Part shown: positions 21,588-31,689 of the stretch, one piece after another | Layout of the letters: each line of letters starts with the position of its first letter | How positions within the stretch are numbered: the first letter of the stretch is position 1 | Source: Rhizodiscina lignyota | Taxonomy: Eukaryota | Assembly (NCBI GenBank): GCA_010015805.1 | Contig: ML978142.1 | Span: 124,001-188,000, forward strand | DNA length: 64,000 bases | Direction: 5' to 3' | Notes under the pieces: model-generated | What the model saw: the letters and a program-made list of their open reading frames with translations, nothing else | What the model was told of the DNA's origin: nothing | The model's database searches: none | Position numbers and translations under genes: made by a program

Positions 21588-22861
21588 TCATATCAGGTTT
21601 CCCCTGAGCTCTTGTTCCCGCTCAATCGCCTCGAAGAGCGACTTGAAGTTCCCAGCGCCGAATCCAGCGAAATTATGCCGCTGGATGATCTCGATGAAGA
21701 CAGTCGGACGATCCATAAGGTGCTTGGTGAAGAGCTGCAGCAAATAGCCACCCTCATCAAAGTCAATCAAGATATCAAGACCTTTTAGCGTCTCAAAATC
21801 CTCGTCCAAAGTCAACCCAGCTTTCTTCAACTTCATCTTCATCGCGTCATAATACGTCTCCGGGACCTTGATAAATTCCACCCCCCTCGCTTTCAGATTC
21901 GTAATGGCGCGAATGATATCGTCTGTCCGAAGCGCGATATGCTGCACGCCGGCACCGTTGTAAAAGTCGACATACTCCTCAATCTGGCTCTGCTTCTTCC
22001 CCTTCGCAGGCTCGTTGATCGGCATCTTCACCACATCGTTTGGCGACGACATTACGATGGACTTTAAGGCAGAGTACTCGGTGCACACGTCCTTGTCGTC
22101 GACACTCCAGAAGCGGTGGAAGCCGAGAACCTCTTCATAGTACGCGCATGCAGCTTCCATCTCGTCCCAGTCTTGGTTGCCGACGCAGTGGTCGATCGCG
22201 TCGAGATGGACCTCGGGGAGGAAGGAGGAGATGGGGTCGGTAGCTGTCTCGGCACGGTAGCCCGGGAGGAAGATGCCGGTGTAGTTGTGGCGCTCGATAA
22301 GGGTGTGTGTGGTATCACCGTATGTTTGGATGGTTGCGAGTTTTACCTGACCGTGTTCGTCTGAGAGAGTTTTGGGTTGTGCTATCACTGCTGCGCCTTT
22401 CTTGATTGCGGAGTTGAAGACTGCATCGAGGTTGTCCACATCAAATGCAACATCTGTGCTGCTCATCAGCCTCGCATCTTCTATGAGTATGGAAAAGGCG
22501 GAGACTCACCTTTAACGCCATCCCCATGCAGCTGCTGGTGATAATGTATCTCCTGCAGCAGCGCTCGATCGCCATCACTCAGGTTCTTCTTATGCTCGGC
22601 ATCCCGCAGAGGCGATGTCAAGACAAATGTGACCTTGCCGTTCGACACGACATGGGATGCGACTGCTCTTGACCCGGTTTCGAGGCCTTTATATGCAATC
22701 CGCTTGAACCCCATCCGCGTGACGTAGTACGACGCAGCCTGCTTTGCGTTCCCAACATACCAGTGTACGTACGCATAGCCCGTGTAAGCGCCCAGGTTCG
22801 TTGGCGGCTGCACCGGCTGTGCCTGGGGACTTGAATTTGGAGATAAGGCGATTGGAGCCAT
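21588..22861 (-). CDS. hppD: 4-hydroxyphenylpyruvate dioxygenase, 2 exons
   Basis: [65 protein letters not shown]. Confidence 0.96.
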
Positions 22862-23092
22862 GGCTTCGGATGATAAGAGATGAATACAGTTCTGACGAAA
22901 GGAGCAGAGAAATGAGATCGCAATGAGAGTGATATACTTTCCTTTCCTTTTATCCTCTCATGTACGGAATCCGTCTGAGATCACGATATACGGCTACACG
23001 CGGCGTCTGTGTTCTGTGCTCGTGAGCATCTATCACTTCTGAGAATTCGGGGTCGAATTTGGTTGTCGGAGGATGACGATGTGGTCGGCTTG

Positions 23093-23129
23093 TCCTGAGA
23101 TATCCGCTAAGAAAGTCCTGAGCTAGCCG
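23093..23129 (-). promoter_or_regulatory. Two tandem CGG(A/C)TA(G/T)CTCAGGA sites upstream of hppD (candidate HmgR sites)
   Basis: TCCTGAGATATCCGC at 23093-23107 and TCCTGAGCTAGCCG at 23116-23129. Confidence 0.6.
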
Positions 23130-23517
23130 ACGATGGCTCGAGTCATGCGTTCTCCGAACCTTCATGGTCAATGACTCGGCTGCCAGAGCGCAGTTATTCC
23201 GCGCCTCGTCAGGGGAGCAGCTGTTGCACTGGAAGCCTCAACATGTTATTATTCAGTGGAAAATCATTTGATGTAGCCGTTGAATACATCGTACATGTCG
23301 GATGAGCGGGAGGTTATTACGCGGTGAATGAAGTGTGCCACGTGTTGATGGACATGGACATGGACGTCGATAATTGTGACAATGAACTCTCTTCCCATCA
23401 TGATCCACTATCAGGGTTGTTCAGAACATGATTGACAAGATTGACTTTTGGGTTAGCGTCGATCTGAGTCCGGCAAAGCCTGGACCGACCTTTCGTGCCG
23501 TGAAAAGACATTTGCCC

Positions 23518-27977: not shown

Positions 27978-28106
27978 AGGGCGACCTCAAGCCATCTCTC
28001 CATCAATGGCCAACGTCTGTTATCCGCAACCATAATGAAGGATATAACCGGATTTTCGCCGCATTTCCTTGCATATCGTCCACCGACGATATGACAATCC
28101 GGAAAC

Positions 28107-30567
28107 ATGAATGACTTGCCGATGAGCGGCAGCTCCACCCCTTCCCGTACTCCAGTCCCGACGTCCGGCTCCTCCGGCGTCCGAAAACCTCGTTCAGTGC
28201 AACGGGACTTCCAAAGGGCTTACAAGGCATGTCTCTCGTGCCGTAAGAGAAAATCACGATGTGAGATCAGCGCTGAGGACTATGCTGCCGGCAAACCATG
28301 CGCCAGATGCCGACGCGAACTCAAGACGTGCGTTTTCACTGAGGAGCGACCTGCCTCGAAGCAGGACAAAGCATCGCGACCACGTGAGCCTCATGGAGCA
28401 CACACACCTGCACCAGTATCCGCTCAGGGGAGCAGTCTTGGCCCCACTGAAGAGGAGGATGCTATGCTGAAGCAAGCTGCATCCGATCGGGAGCTACCAG
28501 AGCCATCGTCAATGTTGGCTGACTCTGTTGTACGGACAGTAGTATCAAGTGGCAACGATGCTCTCAATCTTCTATTCCAAGCCGCAAGTCAACGTCAAAA
28601 TGGCACATCAGATGCGCACCTATTCCCGTCGCACAATGGGGGAATGGACGCAAATGGCACGCCGGCAGCCCGCATGCCGTCTTCTTCAGCGTATCTTGCC
28701 CGCCCTCCCGCCACATCCACTGACGTAATCAATGTCTGGAAGTCGTGCAGATTCGTGAAAATGGGTTGGTTCTCTGCAGAGGAGGCGCTATGGTTTATGG
28801 AAATGTAAGAATGAAGTGGATTATGCGTTTGTCCAGCTTGCAGCTCACGGTACGGTCAGGTTTTACGTTAACCTCTCGCCGTTGTCGCCGGTAGTAACAG
28901 ATTTCTATCGCCAGCCAGCGAATCATCCTCAACTCCTGATCCAGGAGCCAATGCTCTGCTGCACCATCCTCTGTCTATCGTCCCGATACAACGTTTTACC
29001 TGAGCCTGGCGGTTTATCTCGGTATGTGAATCCGTTGACGAATAAGAGTGGATCACTCACGTCTATTTCCAGAAGCTATCTTATTCACGAAAGACTCTGG
29101 GATTATTGTCAGCATATTATTTTGCGAGTCGTGCTTGGCCAAGAGAGGGGACTGAGAGCGAAAACTCGTACATTGGGGACCGTAGAGGCACTATTGCTTC
29201 TAACCGAGTGGCACCCTCGGGCGTTGCATTTCCCACCGCCCAACGACGGATGGGACTCGGACCTTCTGCTGACCACTGTTGACGACGATAATCAAGACCT
29301 CCAGGGGCAAGATGCAGACGGCCGTGGTAGGTGGCTCGAAGATGTCATCAATCCCGCCAAACGATCGGACCGCATGGCTTGGATGTTGCTGGGCTGTGCG
29401 CTTTCCCTTGGACATGAACTTCAAGTCTTCGGTGAAGGCGACGCCGAGACACGGCAAACAATGCTGGAACAATACGAAGAGCAAGCAAGTGAACAACGCT
29501 ATCGGCTCCGAAAGCTGCTGTACGTCTATACAGAGCAACTCGCTGCCAGATTAGGTTGCAAGTCAATCGCGTCTCACACTCTGGGCCATAACGTCGGCCC
29601 CACTTCAAGCCCGACGAATGGCATGTACCGAAGCTCCACCGCCTGGCAATACTTCATGTCGGCTTGGATTGAGCTCACGAGGTTGGTCAAATCTGTGTCT
29701 GAAATGCTCTTCCCTTCAGGGTCCACCAAGCATCTATTACAAAATAATCGGTACATTAGCCTGATTGAGCATTTTCAACCGCTGCTGTCGGCATTCAAAG
29801 ACCGGAATCTCGATTGTTCGCAGCTTGGAGACGATTTCTACGACATTCTCCGGATCGAATATCAAGCGGCGAGATTGTATACCTTCTCTCTAGGCCTACA
29901 GGTTGCCGTCGAGAGGATGCTGTCAGAGTCGGAAATGAATACGCGTGGCGAGGGGCGATCAGCAGCTCACATTGATCCGACGGACTACAGTTTCGTCCAG
30001 GAAGTTATCGATGCGAGTCTCGAAATTCTGCAAATTACAATCAAGCTTGGAGAAGCTGGTAGAATCCTCTACTCCCCTGTCAGAATATTTTATCGTATCA
30101 TCACCGCATCTATCTTCCTCCTAAAAGGGATGAGCTTGGGCGTCGGTTCTGCAAAACTGCGAACAGCGCTCCACATGATGACGCGTGTCATCGAAGTTCT
30201 GCGGTCTGGTGCATTAGATGACATGCATTTGGGCTCGCGATATGCAACTCTGCTCGAAATGCATCTTACTCGGCTGCAGAAGAGTTTTACAGCCTCGACG
30301 AGGCCGCCACATGTCGAGGTAAACCAACCACAAATGATGCCGCAGTATCACGACACTCGCGGCAACGCCTCGAGCAATTCACGTATTCCTCTTCCGGATA
30401 TTAATGGGTCACTAGATACGGAGGATCTGAATCCGGCAGCCGTCATTGAGGACTGGTGGACCTTGCCGCTTGACTCATCCCTTGTGCCGTTTGCGGCAGA
30501 CGATTCGAACGGATTATCGTGGCTCGGAGACGGCTCTTTGGACTTCATCTGGAACTTGGAAACTTGA
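28107..30567 (+). CDS. hmgR: Zn(II)2Cys6 regulator of tyrosine catabolism (HmgR/Aro80-like), 3 exons
   Basis: FQRAYKACLSCRKRKSRC...PCARCRRELKTC, CRFVKMGWF, EALLLLTEWHPRALHFPP, PAKRSDRMAWMLLG and LDDMHLGSRYA; cluster context. Confidence 0.88.
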
Positions 30568-30987
30568 AAATGCTGATCGATTCAAAGCATTGGTGAGATT
30601 CCCCTTGAAGCGTGCGTTAGCATGTCCGCGGGAAACCATCGGCACCATTGCGGCAAAGATGCCGCAACGACAGTCCACTTACCATGAAGATGGTCGGTAG
30701 AATCAACGGCAGAGCAAATGAGCGCAGTAGGGCATCTGAGTATATTAAACCCTTCACAGGACCTCTTCCGATGTTGTTGCAGTGATGCAATACCTGGATA
30801 TATCTCGGACCCGCGCTGACGGAACGCCGTGCCACCACCAATTCCGCCGACGGAACTCGCCCCGAACTTTTTACCGAACTTGGCAACTCGCACGTGATAT
30901 AGTACAAAAACAATACGGAGTATATCATATCTAGACATATCCAGGAGTCAGGGACTAAGCAAGAATAATCAACGGACATTCCGAACA

Positions 30988-31689
30988 ATGGCAGAAGCAA
31001 GCGAAGATCTCGTCCTCTACACCTACTTTCGGTCCTCCTGCTCGGCGCGGCTTCGCATCGCTCTCAACCTCAAAAACATACCGTACACTTCAAAGTACGT
31101 CAATATCCTGAAGAATGAACAATCATCTCCCGAATACGATGCCGTGAACCCATCACACCTGGTGCCGAGCCTGCGACACGTCTCAGCCGACATCACAATC
31201 ACGCAGTCCGTCGCAGCATTGGAATATCTCGAAGAGAGATTCCCAGACCACACTCCTCTCCTTCCACCGGCATCGGACACTACTACCCGGGCACATGTGA
31301 GAACCCTGGTTGATGTCATTGCTTGCGATACGCAACCGGTCACGAATATGCGAATCCTCACCCGCATCGCGGCACTTGGCGGGACAAGGGAGCAGTGGGC
31401 GAGAGAGTTGACTACAGAGGAGCTCATTGCCTACGAAAGACTAGCCAAAAGGACAGCGGGAAAGTTCTCAGTCGGTGATGAGATCACACTGGCCGATATA
31501 TGTCTTGTACCAGCAGTGTGGGGCGCTCAGAGGTGGGGAGTGGACCTGCAACGACTCGGATTGGAAACGGTATCGAGAGTGTTTGAGAACATGGAAGAGG
31601 TGAAAGCCGTCAATAAAGCCAAATGGGATTGTCAGGAAGATACCCCGGAGGAGCTGCGACGTGCAGGAGAGCCGAGCGGAACAACATAG
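30988..31689 (+). CDS. maiA: Maleylacetoacetate isomerase (GST zeta class)
   Basis: LYTYFRSSCSARLRIALNLK, TQSVAALEYLEE, ACDTQPVTN and ITLADICLVPAVW. Confidence 0.93.
   Translation: MAEASEDLVLYTYFRSSCSARLRIALNLKNIPYTSKYVNILKNEQSSPEYDAVNPSHLVPSLRHVSADITITQSVAALEYLEERFPDHTPLLPPASDTTTRAHVRTLVDVIACDTQPVTNMRILTRIAALGGTREQWARELTTEELIAYERLAKRTAGKFSVGDEITLADICLVPAVWGAQRWGVDLQRLGLETVSRVFENMEEVKAVNKAKWDCQEDTPEELRRAGEPSGTT

What the first reader, a model, noticed from the sequence alone, without database searches (positions are those of the whole stretch)
21588..31689. Tyrosine catabolic cluster without hmgA but with an embedded methyltransferase
Seen: gene order hppD, fahA, hmgX, SAM methyltransferase, hmgR, maiA, with no homogentisate 1,2-dioxygenase anywhere in the 64 kb. 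Established: the Aspergillus fumigatus cluster includes hmgA, and loss of hmgA causes homogentisate accumulation and pyomelanin. Inference: hmgA may have relocated, allowing homogentisate cleavage to be regulated separately from its production (a pyomelanin-favouring design), or the cluster may have been rewired. Intact fahA and maiA argue that ring cleavage still occurs, so relocation is the simplest reading.
Basis: partly seen in the sequence, partly recalled or inferred. Interest (0 to 1): 0.72.

Follow-up and report, generated by a model that had tools for sequence, protein, structure and literature searches.

The report
Fungal tyrosine cluster that lost hmgA
This fungus's gene cluster for breaking down tyrosine has lost one enzyme gene, but an older duplicate elsewhere in the genome can do that step, as in many related fungi, so it is an ordinary variant of a known cluster with a bystander methyltransferase gene in it.

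Summary
In detail: hppD, fahA, hmgX, a methyltransferase, hmgR and maiA all have open gene models, and the window has no hmgA or remnant.

'Relocation' does not hold. The genome has two hmgA genes on other contigs. The canonical one sits beside a second fahA and a P450, in an old paralog clade; a test rejects grouping it with the hmgA of L014 and L017 (p=1.3e-5). L014, the closest related cluster, still has hmgA between hppD and fahA, so the cluster's own copy was lost.

hmgA unlinked from hppD is the published Dothideomycete norm, and a pyomelanin role for such clusters is in print (PMC3914699, PMC4059230). hmgA lay near hmgX in 4 of 24 well-flanked related loci; the methyltransferase was in 0 of 80 and is probably a passenger.

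Side result: a CCG-N7-CCG motif in 48 of 65 cluster promoters (10.8 expected) is a candidate HmgR site. It also occurs at the unlinked hmgA locus, but that evidence is weak. Low interest.

The parts
21588..22861 (-). hppD, 4-hydroxyphenylpyruvate dioxygenase, 2 exons (intron 22454-22509), 405 aa; the only copy found in the genome
   Evidence: model; TIGR01263 above cut-off; single match in own genome
22862..23517 (.). 656-bp spacer at the place where the related six-gene clusters L014 and L017 carry hmgA; no hmgA remnant
23092..23131 (+). two candidate HmgR-type CC(G/T)-N7-CCG sites upstream of hppD (15.4 and 13.9 bits)
   Evidence: matrix trained on other fungi; background
23518..24863 (-). 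fahA, fumarylacetoacetase, 2 exons (intron 24402-24454), 430 aa; 65% identical to L014 FahA and 55% to the C20 FahA
25188..25204 (-). candidate HmgR-type site in the fahA/hmgX divergent promoter (16.7 bits, best in the window); its 14-base core is identical to the one at 23093
25327..26019 (+). hmgX, HppD accessory factor, single exon, 230 aa
   Evidence: homologs named hmgX, 44-57% to named fungal proteins
26326..27417 (-). class I SAM-dependent methyltransferase, 5 exons (27417-27365, 27304-27191, 27139-26889, 26833-26811, 26751-26326), 288 aa, motif I intact; large divergent fungal family; probable passenger
27963..27979 (+). weak candidate site (10.6 bits, near background) in the promoter region shared by the methyltransferase and hmgR
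   Evidence: 6 of 99 background tiles reach this score
28107..30567 (+). hmgR, Zn(II)2Cys6 regulator (Aro80-like), 3 exons, 784 aa
   Evidence: 30-47% to the regulators beside hppD/hmgX in related loci
30988..31689 (+). maiA, maleylacetoacetate isomerase, single exon, 233 aa; a second maiA-like gene lies on contig C14
   Evidence: TIGR01262 above cut-off

Best explanation
This is a fungal tyrosine-degradation (TD) cluster descended from a six-gene cluster like L014 (hmgR, maiA, hppD, hmgA, fahA, hmgX). It lost its own hmgA cleanly from between hppD and fahA. The loss was tolerated because the genome already held the older, unlinked hmgA-fahA pair that Dothideomycetes normally use (contig C20, next to a P450).

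How it works: HppD, helped by HmgX, makes homogentisate; the C20 HmgA opens the ring; MaiA and FahA finish the path to fumarate and acetoacetate; surplus homogentisate can oxidise to pyomelanin, as in other fungi. HmgR probably induces the cluster through CCG-N7-CCG sites and may also reach the C20 genes. The methyltransferase sits at the join between the hppD-fahA-hmgX block and the hmgR-maiA block and is most likely a lineage-specific passenger.

Shown: gene content, the two hmgA copies, paralogy of the C20 copy, kinship with L014, absence of the methyltransferase from related loci, motif enrichment. Inferred: direction of change (loss), flux through the C20 enzyme, HmgR binding, passenger status.
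For: Two hmgA genes on other contigs. The C20 protein scores 699 on TIGR01015 against a cut-off of 511 and aligns to the solved human enzyme with the iron-ligand stretch intact (the residue roles are recalled).

C20 HmgA falls in a clade with Dothideomycete, Leotiomycete, lichen and Xylona proteins (100/99), apart from all 10 cluster-resident HmgA rows; AU p=1.3e-5 against joining it with L014 and L017.

The window groups with L014 for HppD (96/94), MaiA (96/95) and HppD+HmgX+HmgR (98/98). L014 and L017 have hmgA exactly between hppD and fahA, with the same strands for the neighbours.

The PMC3914699 supplement lists adjacent hmgA/fahA gene numbers, far from hppD/hmgX, in several Dothideomycetes.

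Methyltransferase profile: 0 of 80 related loci, while it finds the window's own exons. The nearest full-length homolog is only 36% identical. Passenger genes inside TD clusters are described in Talaromyces marneffei (PMC4374905 passages).
Against: The FahA tree is unresolved and does not reject pairing the window and C20 copies (AU p=0.28). MaiA support for window+L014 fell to 91/90 when the C14 copy was added.

No close relative of this genome was among the 80 loci (best HmgX 54%), so the methyltransferase could be conserved within its own order.

In T. marneffei the hmgA paralogs do not replace the cluster copy on tyrosine (PMC4374905 passage), so complementation is not automatic.

The best C20 site lies directly before the ATG of an 83-codon uORF, so it may be transcribed leader and partly start-codon context. 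Single sites of this score occur by chance across the genome. The window's maiA promoter has no strong site.
Confidence: 0.75

Rival explanations
1. Uncoupled, pigment-leaning pathway. HmgR induces homogentisate production, while the surviving C20 hmgA answers mainly to other signals (phenylacetate-type substrates, or its uORF), so homogentisate builds up and becomes pyomelanin.
For: The cluster's hmgA is gone. The C20 hmgA carries an 83-codon upstream frame crossing its start, with no match at cluster-type hmgA loci (best E 0.54). In Exophiala dermatitidis only hppD is induced at low pH and hmgA is unlinked (PMC4059230 passages). Alternaria alternata makes pyomelanin on tyrosine (PMC8430343 passages). 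T. marneffei paralogs are not induced by tyrosine (PMC4374905 passage).
Against: fahA and maiA are kept in the cluster, and fahA's promoter has the best site; both act only after ring cleavage. Both C20 promoter regions examined hold sites of at least 13.3 bits, against 2 of 99 background tiles. The idea is already in print for hmgA-less clusters (PMC3914699), so it would not be new.
Confidence: 0.2
2. The methyltransferase is a recruited pathway enzyme that O-methylates homogentisate or a related hydroquinone, giving a branch that detoxifies it or makes a new metabolite in place of in-cluster ring cleavage.
For: The gene is intact with SAM motif I, lies inside the cluster, and shares a divergent promoter region with hmgR that holds a weak site.
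Against: 0 of 80 related loci hold a homolog. The family is large and divergent (642 representatives at E<=0.001), with only generic hits among solved structures. The site's score is reached by 6 of 99 background tiles. A search for the four terms found one paper, seen only as a listing.
Confidence: 0.07
3. Origin by horizontal transfer (compatible with the best explanation). A six-gene cluster was acquired, replaced the native hppD-hmgX-hmgR, and then shed its redundant hmgA, much as Baudoinia gained a full TD cluster on top of its native hmgA-fahA.
For: Window HmgX groups (98/95) with L014, unnamed proteins and a Cephalotrichum (Sordariomycete) protein, not with named Dothideomycete HmgX. 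AU rejects window+Dothideomycetes when L014 and Cephalotrichum are kept out (p=0.0002). PMC3914699 found TD-type hmgA and maiA in only one Dothideomycete, by transfer.
Against: AU does not reject the whole window clade as part of a Dothideomycete group (p=0.31), so Cephalotrichum may be the recipient. The taxon of L014 is unknown. GC3 of the cluster genes (0.51-0.67) overlaps that of three flanking genes (0.56-0.78).
Confidence: 0.3
4. True relocation: the cluster's hmgA moved to C20 or C1.
For: The C20 hmgA is intact and has candidate HmgR-type sites nearby.
Against: AU p=1.3e-5. C20 HmgA is 80% identical to Alternaria HmgA and 73% to L014 HmgA; C1 HmgA is 45% identical to C20, lacks one conserved histidine and has no site. 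The C1 row sits on a very long branch and was left out of the AU test.
Confidence: 0.03

Closest known systems
TD-E tyrosine-degradation cluster of Aspergillus fumigatus and other Eurotiomycetes (PMC3914699; PMC3203155)
   Same: hppD, hmgX, fahA, maiA and hmgR together in about 10 kb
   Different: No hmgA; different order (fahA, not hppD, is divergent from hmgX); inserted methyltransferase; window genes group with L014, not with the Eurotiales loci
TD-P cluster of Pleosporomycetidae (hmgX, hppD, hmgR; PMC3914699)
   Same: Dothideomycete host; no hmgA in the cluster; reliance on an unlinked hmgA-fahA pair; pyomelanin role already proposed
   Different: Keeps fahA and maiA in the cluster; HmgX does not group with named Pleosporomycetidae HmgX
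TD-BX clusters of Baudoinia compniacensis and Exophiala dermatitidis (PMC3914699, PMC4059230)
   Same: Baudoinia has a TD cluster on top of native hmgA/fahA; Exophiala has hppD-hmgX-hmgR with hmgA unlinked
   Different: No isocitrate lyase or MFS gene inside this cluster; Baudoinia keeps the cluster hmgA
Metagenome locus L014 (six genes: hmgR, maiA, hppD, hmgA, fahA, hmgX)
   Same: Nearest relative in four gene trees; same strands and same core order
   Different: Has hmgA; hmgR-maiA lies on the other side; no methyltransferase
Aro80 of Saccharomyces and its CCG-N7-CCG site (PMC1829477 passages; PMC12941744 table)
   Same: Same triplet and spacing as the motif enriched in TD promoters; HmgR is reported 40% identical to Aro80 (PMC3203155 passage)
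   Different: The HmgR site is listed as not available in PMC12941744; binding is untested here

Membership tests
Fungal TD cluster (broad sense, PMC3914699) | At least two of hppD, hmgX, hmgA, fahA, maiA, hmgR within six genes of each other | tested here: met
   five of six
TD-E type | hppD, hmgX, hmgA, fahA, maiA in that order | tested here: not met
   hmgA absent and order differs
TD-E type | Genes fall in the Eurotiomycete clade | tested here: not met
   window groups with L014, outside the Aspergillus/Penicillium clade
TD-P type | Only hmgX, hppD and hmgR clustered | tested here: not met
   fahA and maiA are also clustered
TD-P type | Genes fall in the Pleosporomycetidae clade | tested here: inconclusive
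   AU p=0.0002 or 0.31 depending on which rows are included
TD-BX type | Isocitrate lyase and MFS transporter in the cluster | tested here: not met
   only the six genes lie between 21588 and 31689
Homogentisate 1,2-dioxygenase (C20 gene) | HgmA_N + HgmA_C domains, TIGR01015 cut-off, iron ligands | tested here: met
   ligand roles recalled
Homogentisate 1,2-dioxygenase (C1 gene) | TIGR01015 cut-off and full active site | tested here: inconclusive
   only the large exon was scored (449 against a cut-off of 511); three ligand positions kept, one conserved histidine replaced
CYP504 / PhacA phenylacetate hydroxylase (C20 P450) | More than 40% identity to CYP504 references | not testable with these tools
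   only generic p450 hits; the resemblance is recalled; CYP504 next to hmgA is seen in gene numbers of another fungus (PMC5844311 passage)
Class I SAM methyltransferase | Motif I and Pfam Methyltransf_23/12/25 above cut-off | tested here: met
HmgR regulon | Tyrosine-induced, hmgR-dependent transcription | not testable with these tools
   no RNA data; only motif prediction

The most novel reading that the evidence does not exclude
A distinct, possibly mobile lineage of TD cluster lost hmgA and handed ring cleavage to an old paralog that is throttled by a uORF. HmgR would then switch on homogentisate production while translation of the dioxygenase sets the split between carbon use and pyomelanin, with the inserted methyltransferase capping homogentisate as a third outlet.
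Probability: 0.07. Interest if true: 0.6.

Novelty: new variant of a known kind. Interest (0 to 1): 0.2.

Why it matters
As a cluster it adds one more arrangement (five TD genes without hmgA, seen in 0 of 80 related loci) to a family already known to shed and shuffle these genes. It is a clean case of loss buffered by an old paralog.

The more useful by-product is a testable HmgR binding-site prediction, CCG-N7-CCG as for yeast Aro80. A 2026 review lists the HmgR site as not available (PMC12941744), and my one search for it listed no paper giving one. The motif could be checked directly in Aspergillus.

Tried and rejected
hmgA remnant in the hppD-fahA spacer: none by tblastn, profile, blastn or tblastx.

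Word-index homolog search with the methyltransferase's third exon: no hit among 29 candidates; the full HMMER library search worked instead. Solved-structure searches for its substrate class: none for one homolog, only generic hits for a 25-row profile.

Naming the C20 P450: Pfam, NCBIfam and the Atlas gave only generic P450.

Mutual dependence through a single maiA: rejected, a second maiA-like gene exists.

Genome-wide motif check: a tight pattern gave 83 matches against 79 for the control. Sixteen hand-picked matches of the 83 lay mostly in long open frames or next to genes with no evident link to the pathway, judged by eye without family scans. A single site is therefore not diagnostic.

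Shared MET8 neighbour as a sign of an ancestral locus: the hits near L065 and L073 are only 32% identical, in longer proteins, probably a paralog; dropped.

FahA tree: unresolved. The first HmgA tree is the quick version because the careful search did not finish; the reduced 23-row tree did finish.

Earlier-findings look-up for relatives: nothing.
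Full report
OBSERVATION. The window is fungal DNA at G000:C22:124001-188000 of a 33.4-Mb, 33-contig assembly. Between a MET8-like gene (ending 21451) and 31689 lie hppD(-), fahA(-), hmgX(+), a methyltransferase(-), hmgR(+) and maiA(+). All six have open models with GT-AG introns. HppD, FahA and MaiA pass NCBIfam cut-offs. HmgX has 570 homologs at E<=1e-10 among 1347 candidates, some named hmgX. The methyltransferase has five exons and 288 residues and matches Methyltransf_23/12/25. 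No hmgA or remnant was found in the window with 120 HmgA proteins or a profile of them.

WHERE hmgA IS. Both HmgA Pfam models find the same two genes, 3 of 3 candidates scored each time: C20:177.9-179.2 kb and C1:1154.1-1155.4 kb. On C20, hmgA is divergent from a second fahA, which is followed by a P450. I recall the P450 as resembling phenylacetate hydroxylase (CYP504); no call tested this. A protein 99% identical to the C20 enzyme is named Rhizodiscina lignyota by its source, a Dothideomycete of the order Aulographales. The C20 enzyme passes TIGR01015 and aligns over its length with the solved human enzyme. The C1 gene is 45% identical to it, keeps three ligand positions, and has glutamate where the others have a conserved histidine (residue roles recalled). 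hppD is single-copy; a second maiA-like gene lies on C14.

LOSS, NOT RELOCATION. An HmgX alignment found 112 relatives in metagenome contigs, of which the best 80 were returned. The closest, L014, reads hmgR> maiA> hppD< hmgA> fahA< hmgX>; L017 reads hppD< hmgA> fahA< hmgX> hmgR< ... maiA>. The window has the same core with hmgA missing. It groups with L014 for HppD (96/94), MaiA (96/95, falling to 91/90 with the C14 copy added) and HppD+HmgX+HmgR (98/98). In the HmgA trees the C20 protein sits in a clade of Dothideomycete, Leotiomycete, lichen and Xylona proteins: 32 of 55 rows in a quick tree and 10 of 23 rows at 100/99 in a finished tree without the long C1 row. All 10 cluster-resident HmgA rows and the Eurotiomycete proteins lie outside it. 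Forcing C20 together with L014 and L017 is rejected (AU p=1.3e-5). Named rows were a hand-picked 44 of the 120 hits, and locus proteins are approximations merged from tblastn pieces. The FahA tree is unresolved (p=0.28 for window+C20), although window FahA is closer to L014 (65%) than to C20 (55%). The simplest reading is that the cluster's own hmgA was deleted.

IS THIS UNUSUAL? Greene et al. (PMC3914699; I read parts 1-4 of 6 of the text and part 1 of 5 of supplementary file 2; figures and file 1 not seen) describe hmgA-less TD-P clusters in Pleosporomycetidae and already suggest a pyomelanin role. Their supplement lists adjacent gene numbers for hmgA and fahA, far from hppD and hmgX, in Pyrenophora, Leptosphaeria, Hysterium, Coniosporium and others. 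In Coniosporium apollinis, hmgX and hmgA are on different contigs in both assemblies listed. Among the 80 loci, 14 hold hmgA; among the 24 with at least 7 kb on each side of hmgX, 4 do (near-duplicate contigs not removed). The exact five-gene content of the window occurs in 0 of 80, so the arrangement is a rare variant, but an unlinked hmgA is the norm. Exophiala dermatitidis has hmgA unlinked and induces hppD alone at low pH (PMC4059230, passages). Alternaria alternata makes pyomelanin on tyrosine (PMC8430343, passages).

THE METHYLTRANSFERASE. Its third exon finds 642 representatives at E<=0.001, the best at 45-49% identity. Of ten looked up, six carry names, from scattered lichen, Elsinoe and Hypoxylon genomes. 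The best full-length identity is 36%. A 52-row profile recovers three window frames and nothing in the 80 loci. Solved structures give only generic methyltransferases. The gene lies at the join of the two blocks that are swapped relative to L014, which suggests (inference) that it arrived with that rearrangement. T. marneffei has a tyrosine-induced but dispensable passenger in its cluster (PMC4374905, passages). Close relatives of this genome were not sampled, so conservation within its order is untested.

REGULATION. I took promoter regions from the related loci after dropping 29 of 80 by eye as near-duplicates; 46 loci gave 65 regions. Of 48 triplet spacings tried, CCG-N7-CCG was the most enriched: 48 of 65 regions against 10.8 +/- 3.0 in shuffles. 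Eight other spacings reached z of 4-7. This is the spacing reported for yeast Aro80 (PMC1829477, passages), to which HmgR is 40% identical (PMC3203155, passages). A 2026 table gives no site for HmgR (PMC12941744, passages), and one search for HmgR+Aro80+binding listed three papers.

A matrix built from those other fungi scores 15.4 and 13.9 bits upstream of hppD, 16.7 between fahA and hmgX, 10.6 between the methyltransferase and hmgR, and 9.3 before maiA. At C20 it scores 15.4 between hmgA and fahA2 and 13.3 about 310 bases before the P450; nothing reaches 7 before the C1 gene. Background in 200 kb of this genome is 3 sites at 13.3 or more; 2 of 99 tiles poor in long frames reach that score.

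Against over-reading: the motif is not enriched genome-wide (83 against 79), and 16 strong matches inspected showed no evident pathway link. I confirmed an 83-codon frame whose ATG directly follows the 15.4-bit site, so the site may lie in the transcript leader and partly reflect start-codon context. The frame has no match at cluster-type hmgA loci. I did not test its conservation. HmgR control of C20 hmgA is therefore about even odds.

ORIGIN. Window HmgX groups with L014, five unnamed proteins and a Cephalotrichum protein (98/95). Tests reject window+named Dothideomycetes when those rows are excluded (p=0.0002) but not when they are included (p=0.31). Transfer into this lineage is possible, with Baudoinia as precedent, but is not shown; Cephalotrichum may be the recipient instead.

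VERDICT. A real but ordinary new variant of the fungal TD cluster: loss of the in-cluster hmgA, buffered by an old paralog, plus a probable passenger methyltransferase. The pigment hypothesis is open but already in print. Other papers seen as passages only: PMC5844311, PMC5358931, PMC6723986, PMC7082219. Interest 0.2.

Noticed in passing
L005:762-6793 (G000:C20, about 177.8-183.8 kb): hmgA divergent from a second fahA, followed by a P450 that I recall as phenylacetate-hydroxylase-like; both upstream regions hold a candidate HmgR-type site.
   Followed up: partly
L005:2563-2312 (-): 83-codon upstream frame crossing the C20 hmgA start in another frame; no match at cluster-type hmgA loci; already noted by this scan (e1-7565998).
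   Followed up: partly
L007:1526-2915 (-) (G000:C1, about 1154.0-1155.4 kb): Divergent HmgA-family gene next to a V-ATPase a-subunit-like gene; iron-ligand positions kept but a conserved histidine is glutamate, so its substrate may differ.
   Followed up: partly
TD promoters in L014-L093; window 23092, 23115, 25188: CCG-N7-CCG motif enriched in fungal tyrosine-cluster promoters (48 of 65), a candidate HmgR binding site.
   Followed up: yes
P0078 (Cephalotrichum gorgonifer HmgX): A Sordariomycete HmgX nested with L014 and the window (98/95), a lead for horizontal transfer of a TD cluster into Microascales.
   Followed up: partly
L014 versus window 21588-31689: The hmgR-maiA block lies on the opposite side of the core with all strands preserved; the methyltransferase is at the junction.
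   Followed up: partly
L020-L032 (nine near-identical loci): hmgX with no hppD or other TD gene within up to 10 kb on either side, unusual for this gene.
   Followed up: no
window 33700-36300: Several short Cys/His-rich frames on the minus strand that look like two or three tandem zinc-finger genes; no Pfam hit for the two pieces scanned.
   Followed up: no
window 47177-48311: Helix-turn-helix plus DDE-like frames resembling a Tc1/mariner-type transposase (recalled pattern, not scanned).
   Followed up: no
window 55951-55968: Palindromic CCG-rich site scoring 15.5 and 13.1 bits on the two strands, inside a HET-domain-like frame; probably chance.
   Followed up: no
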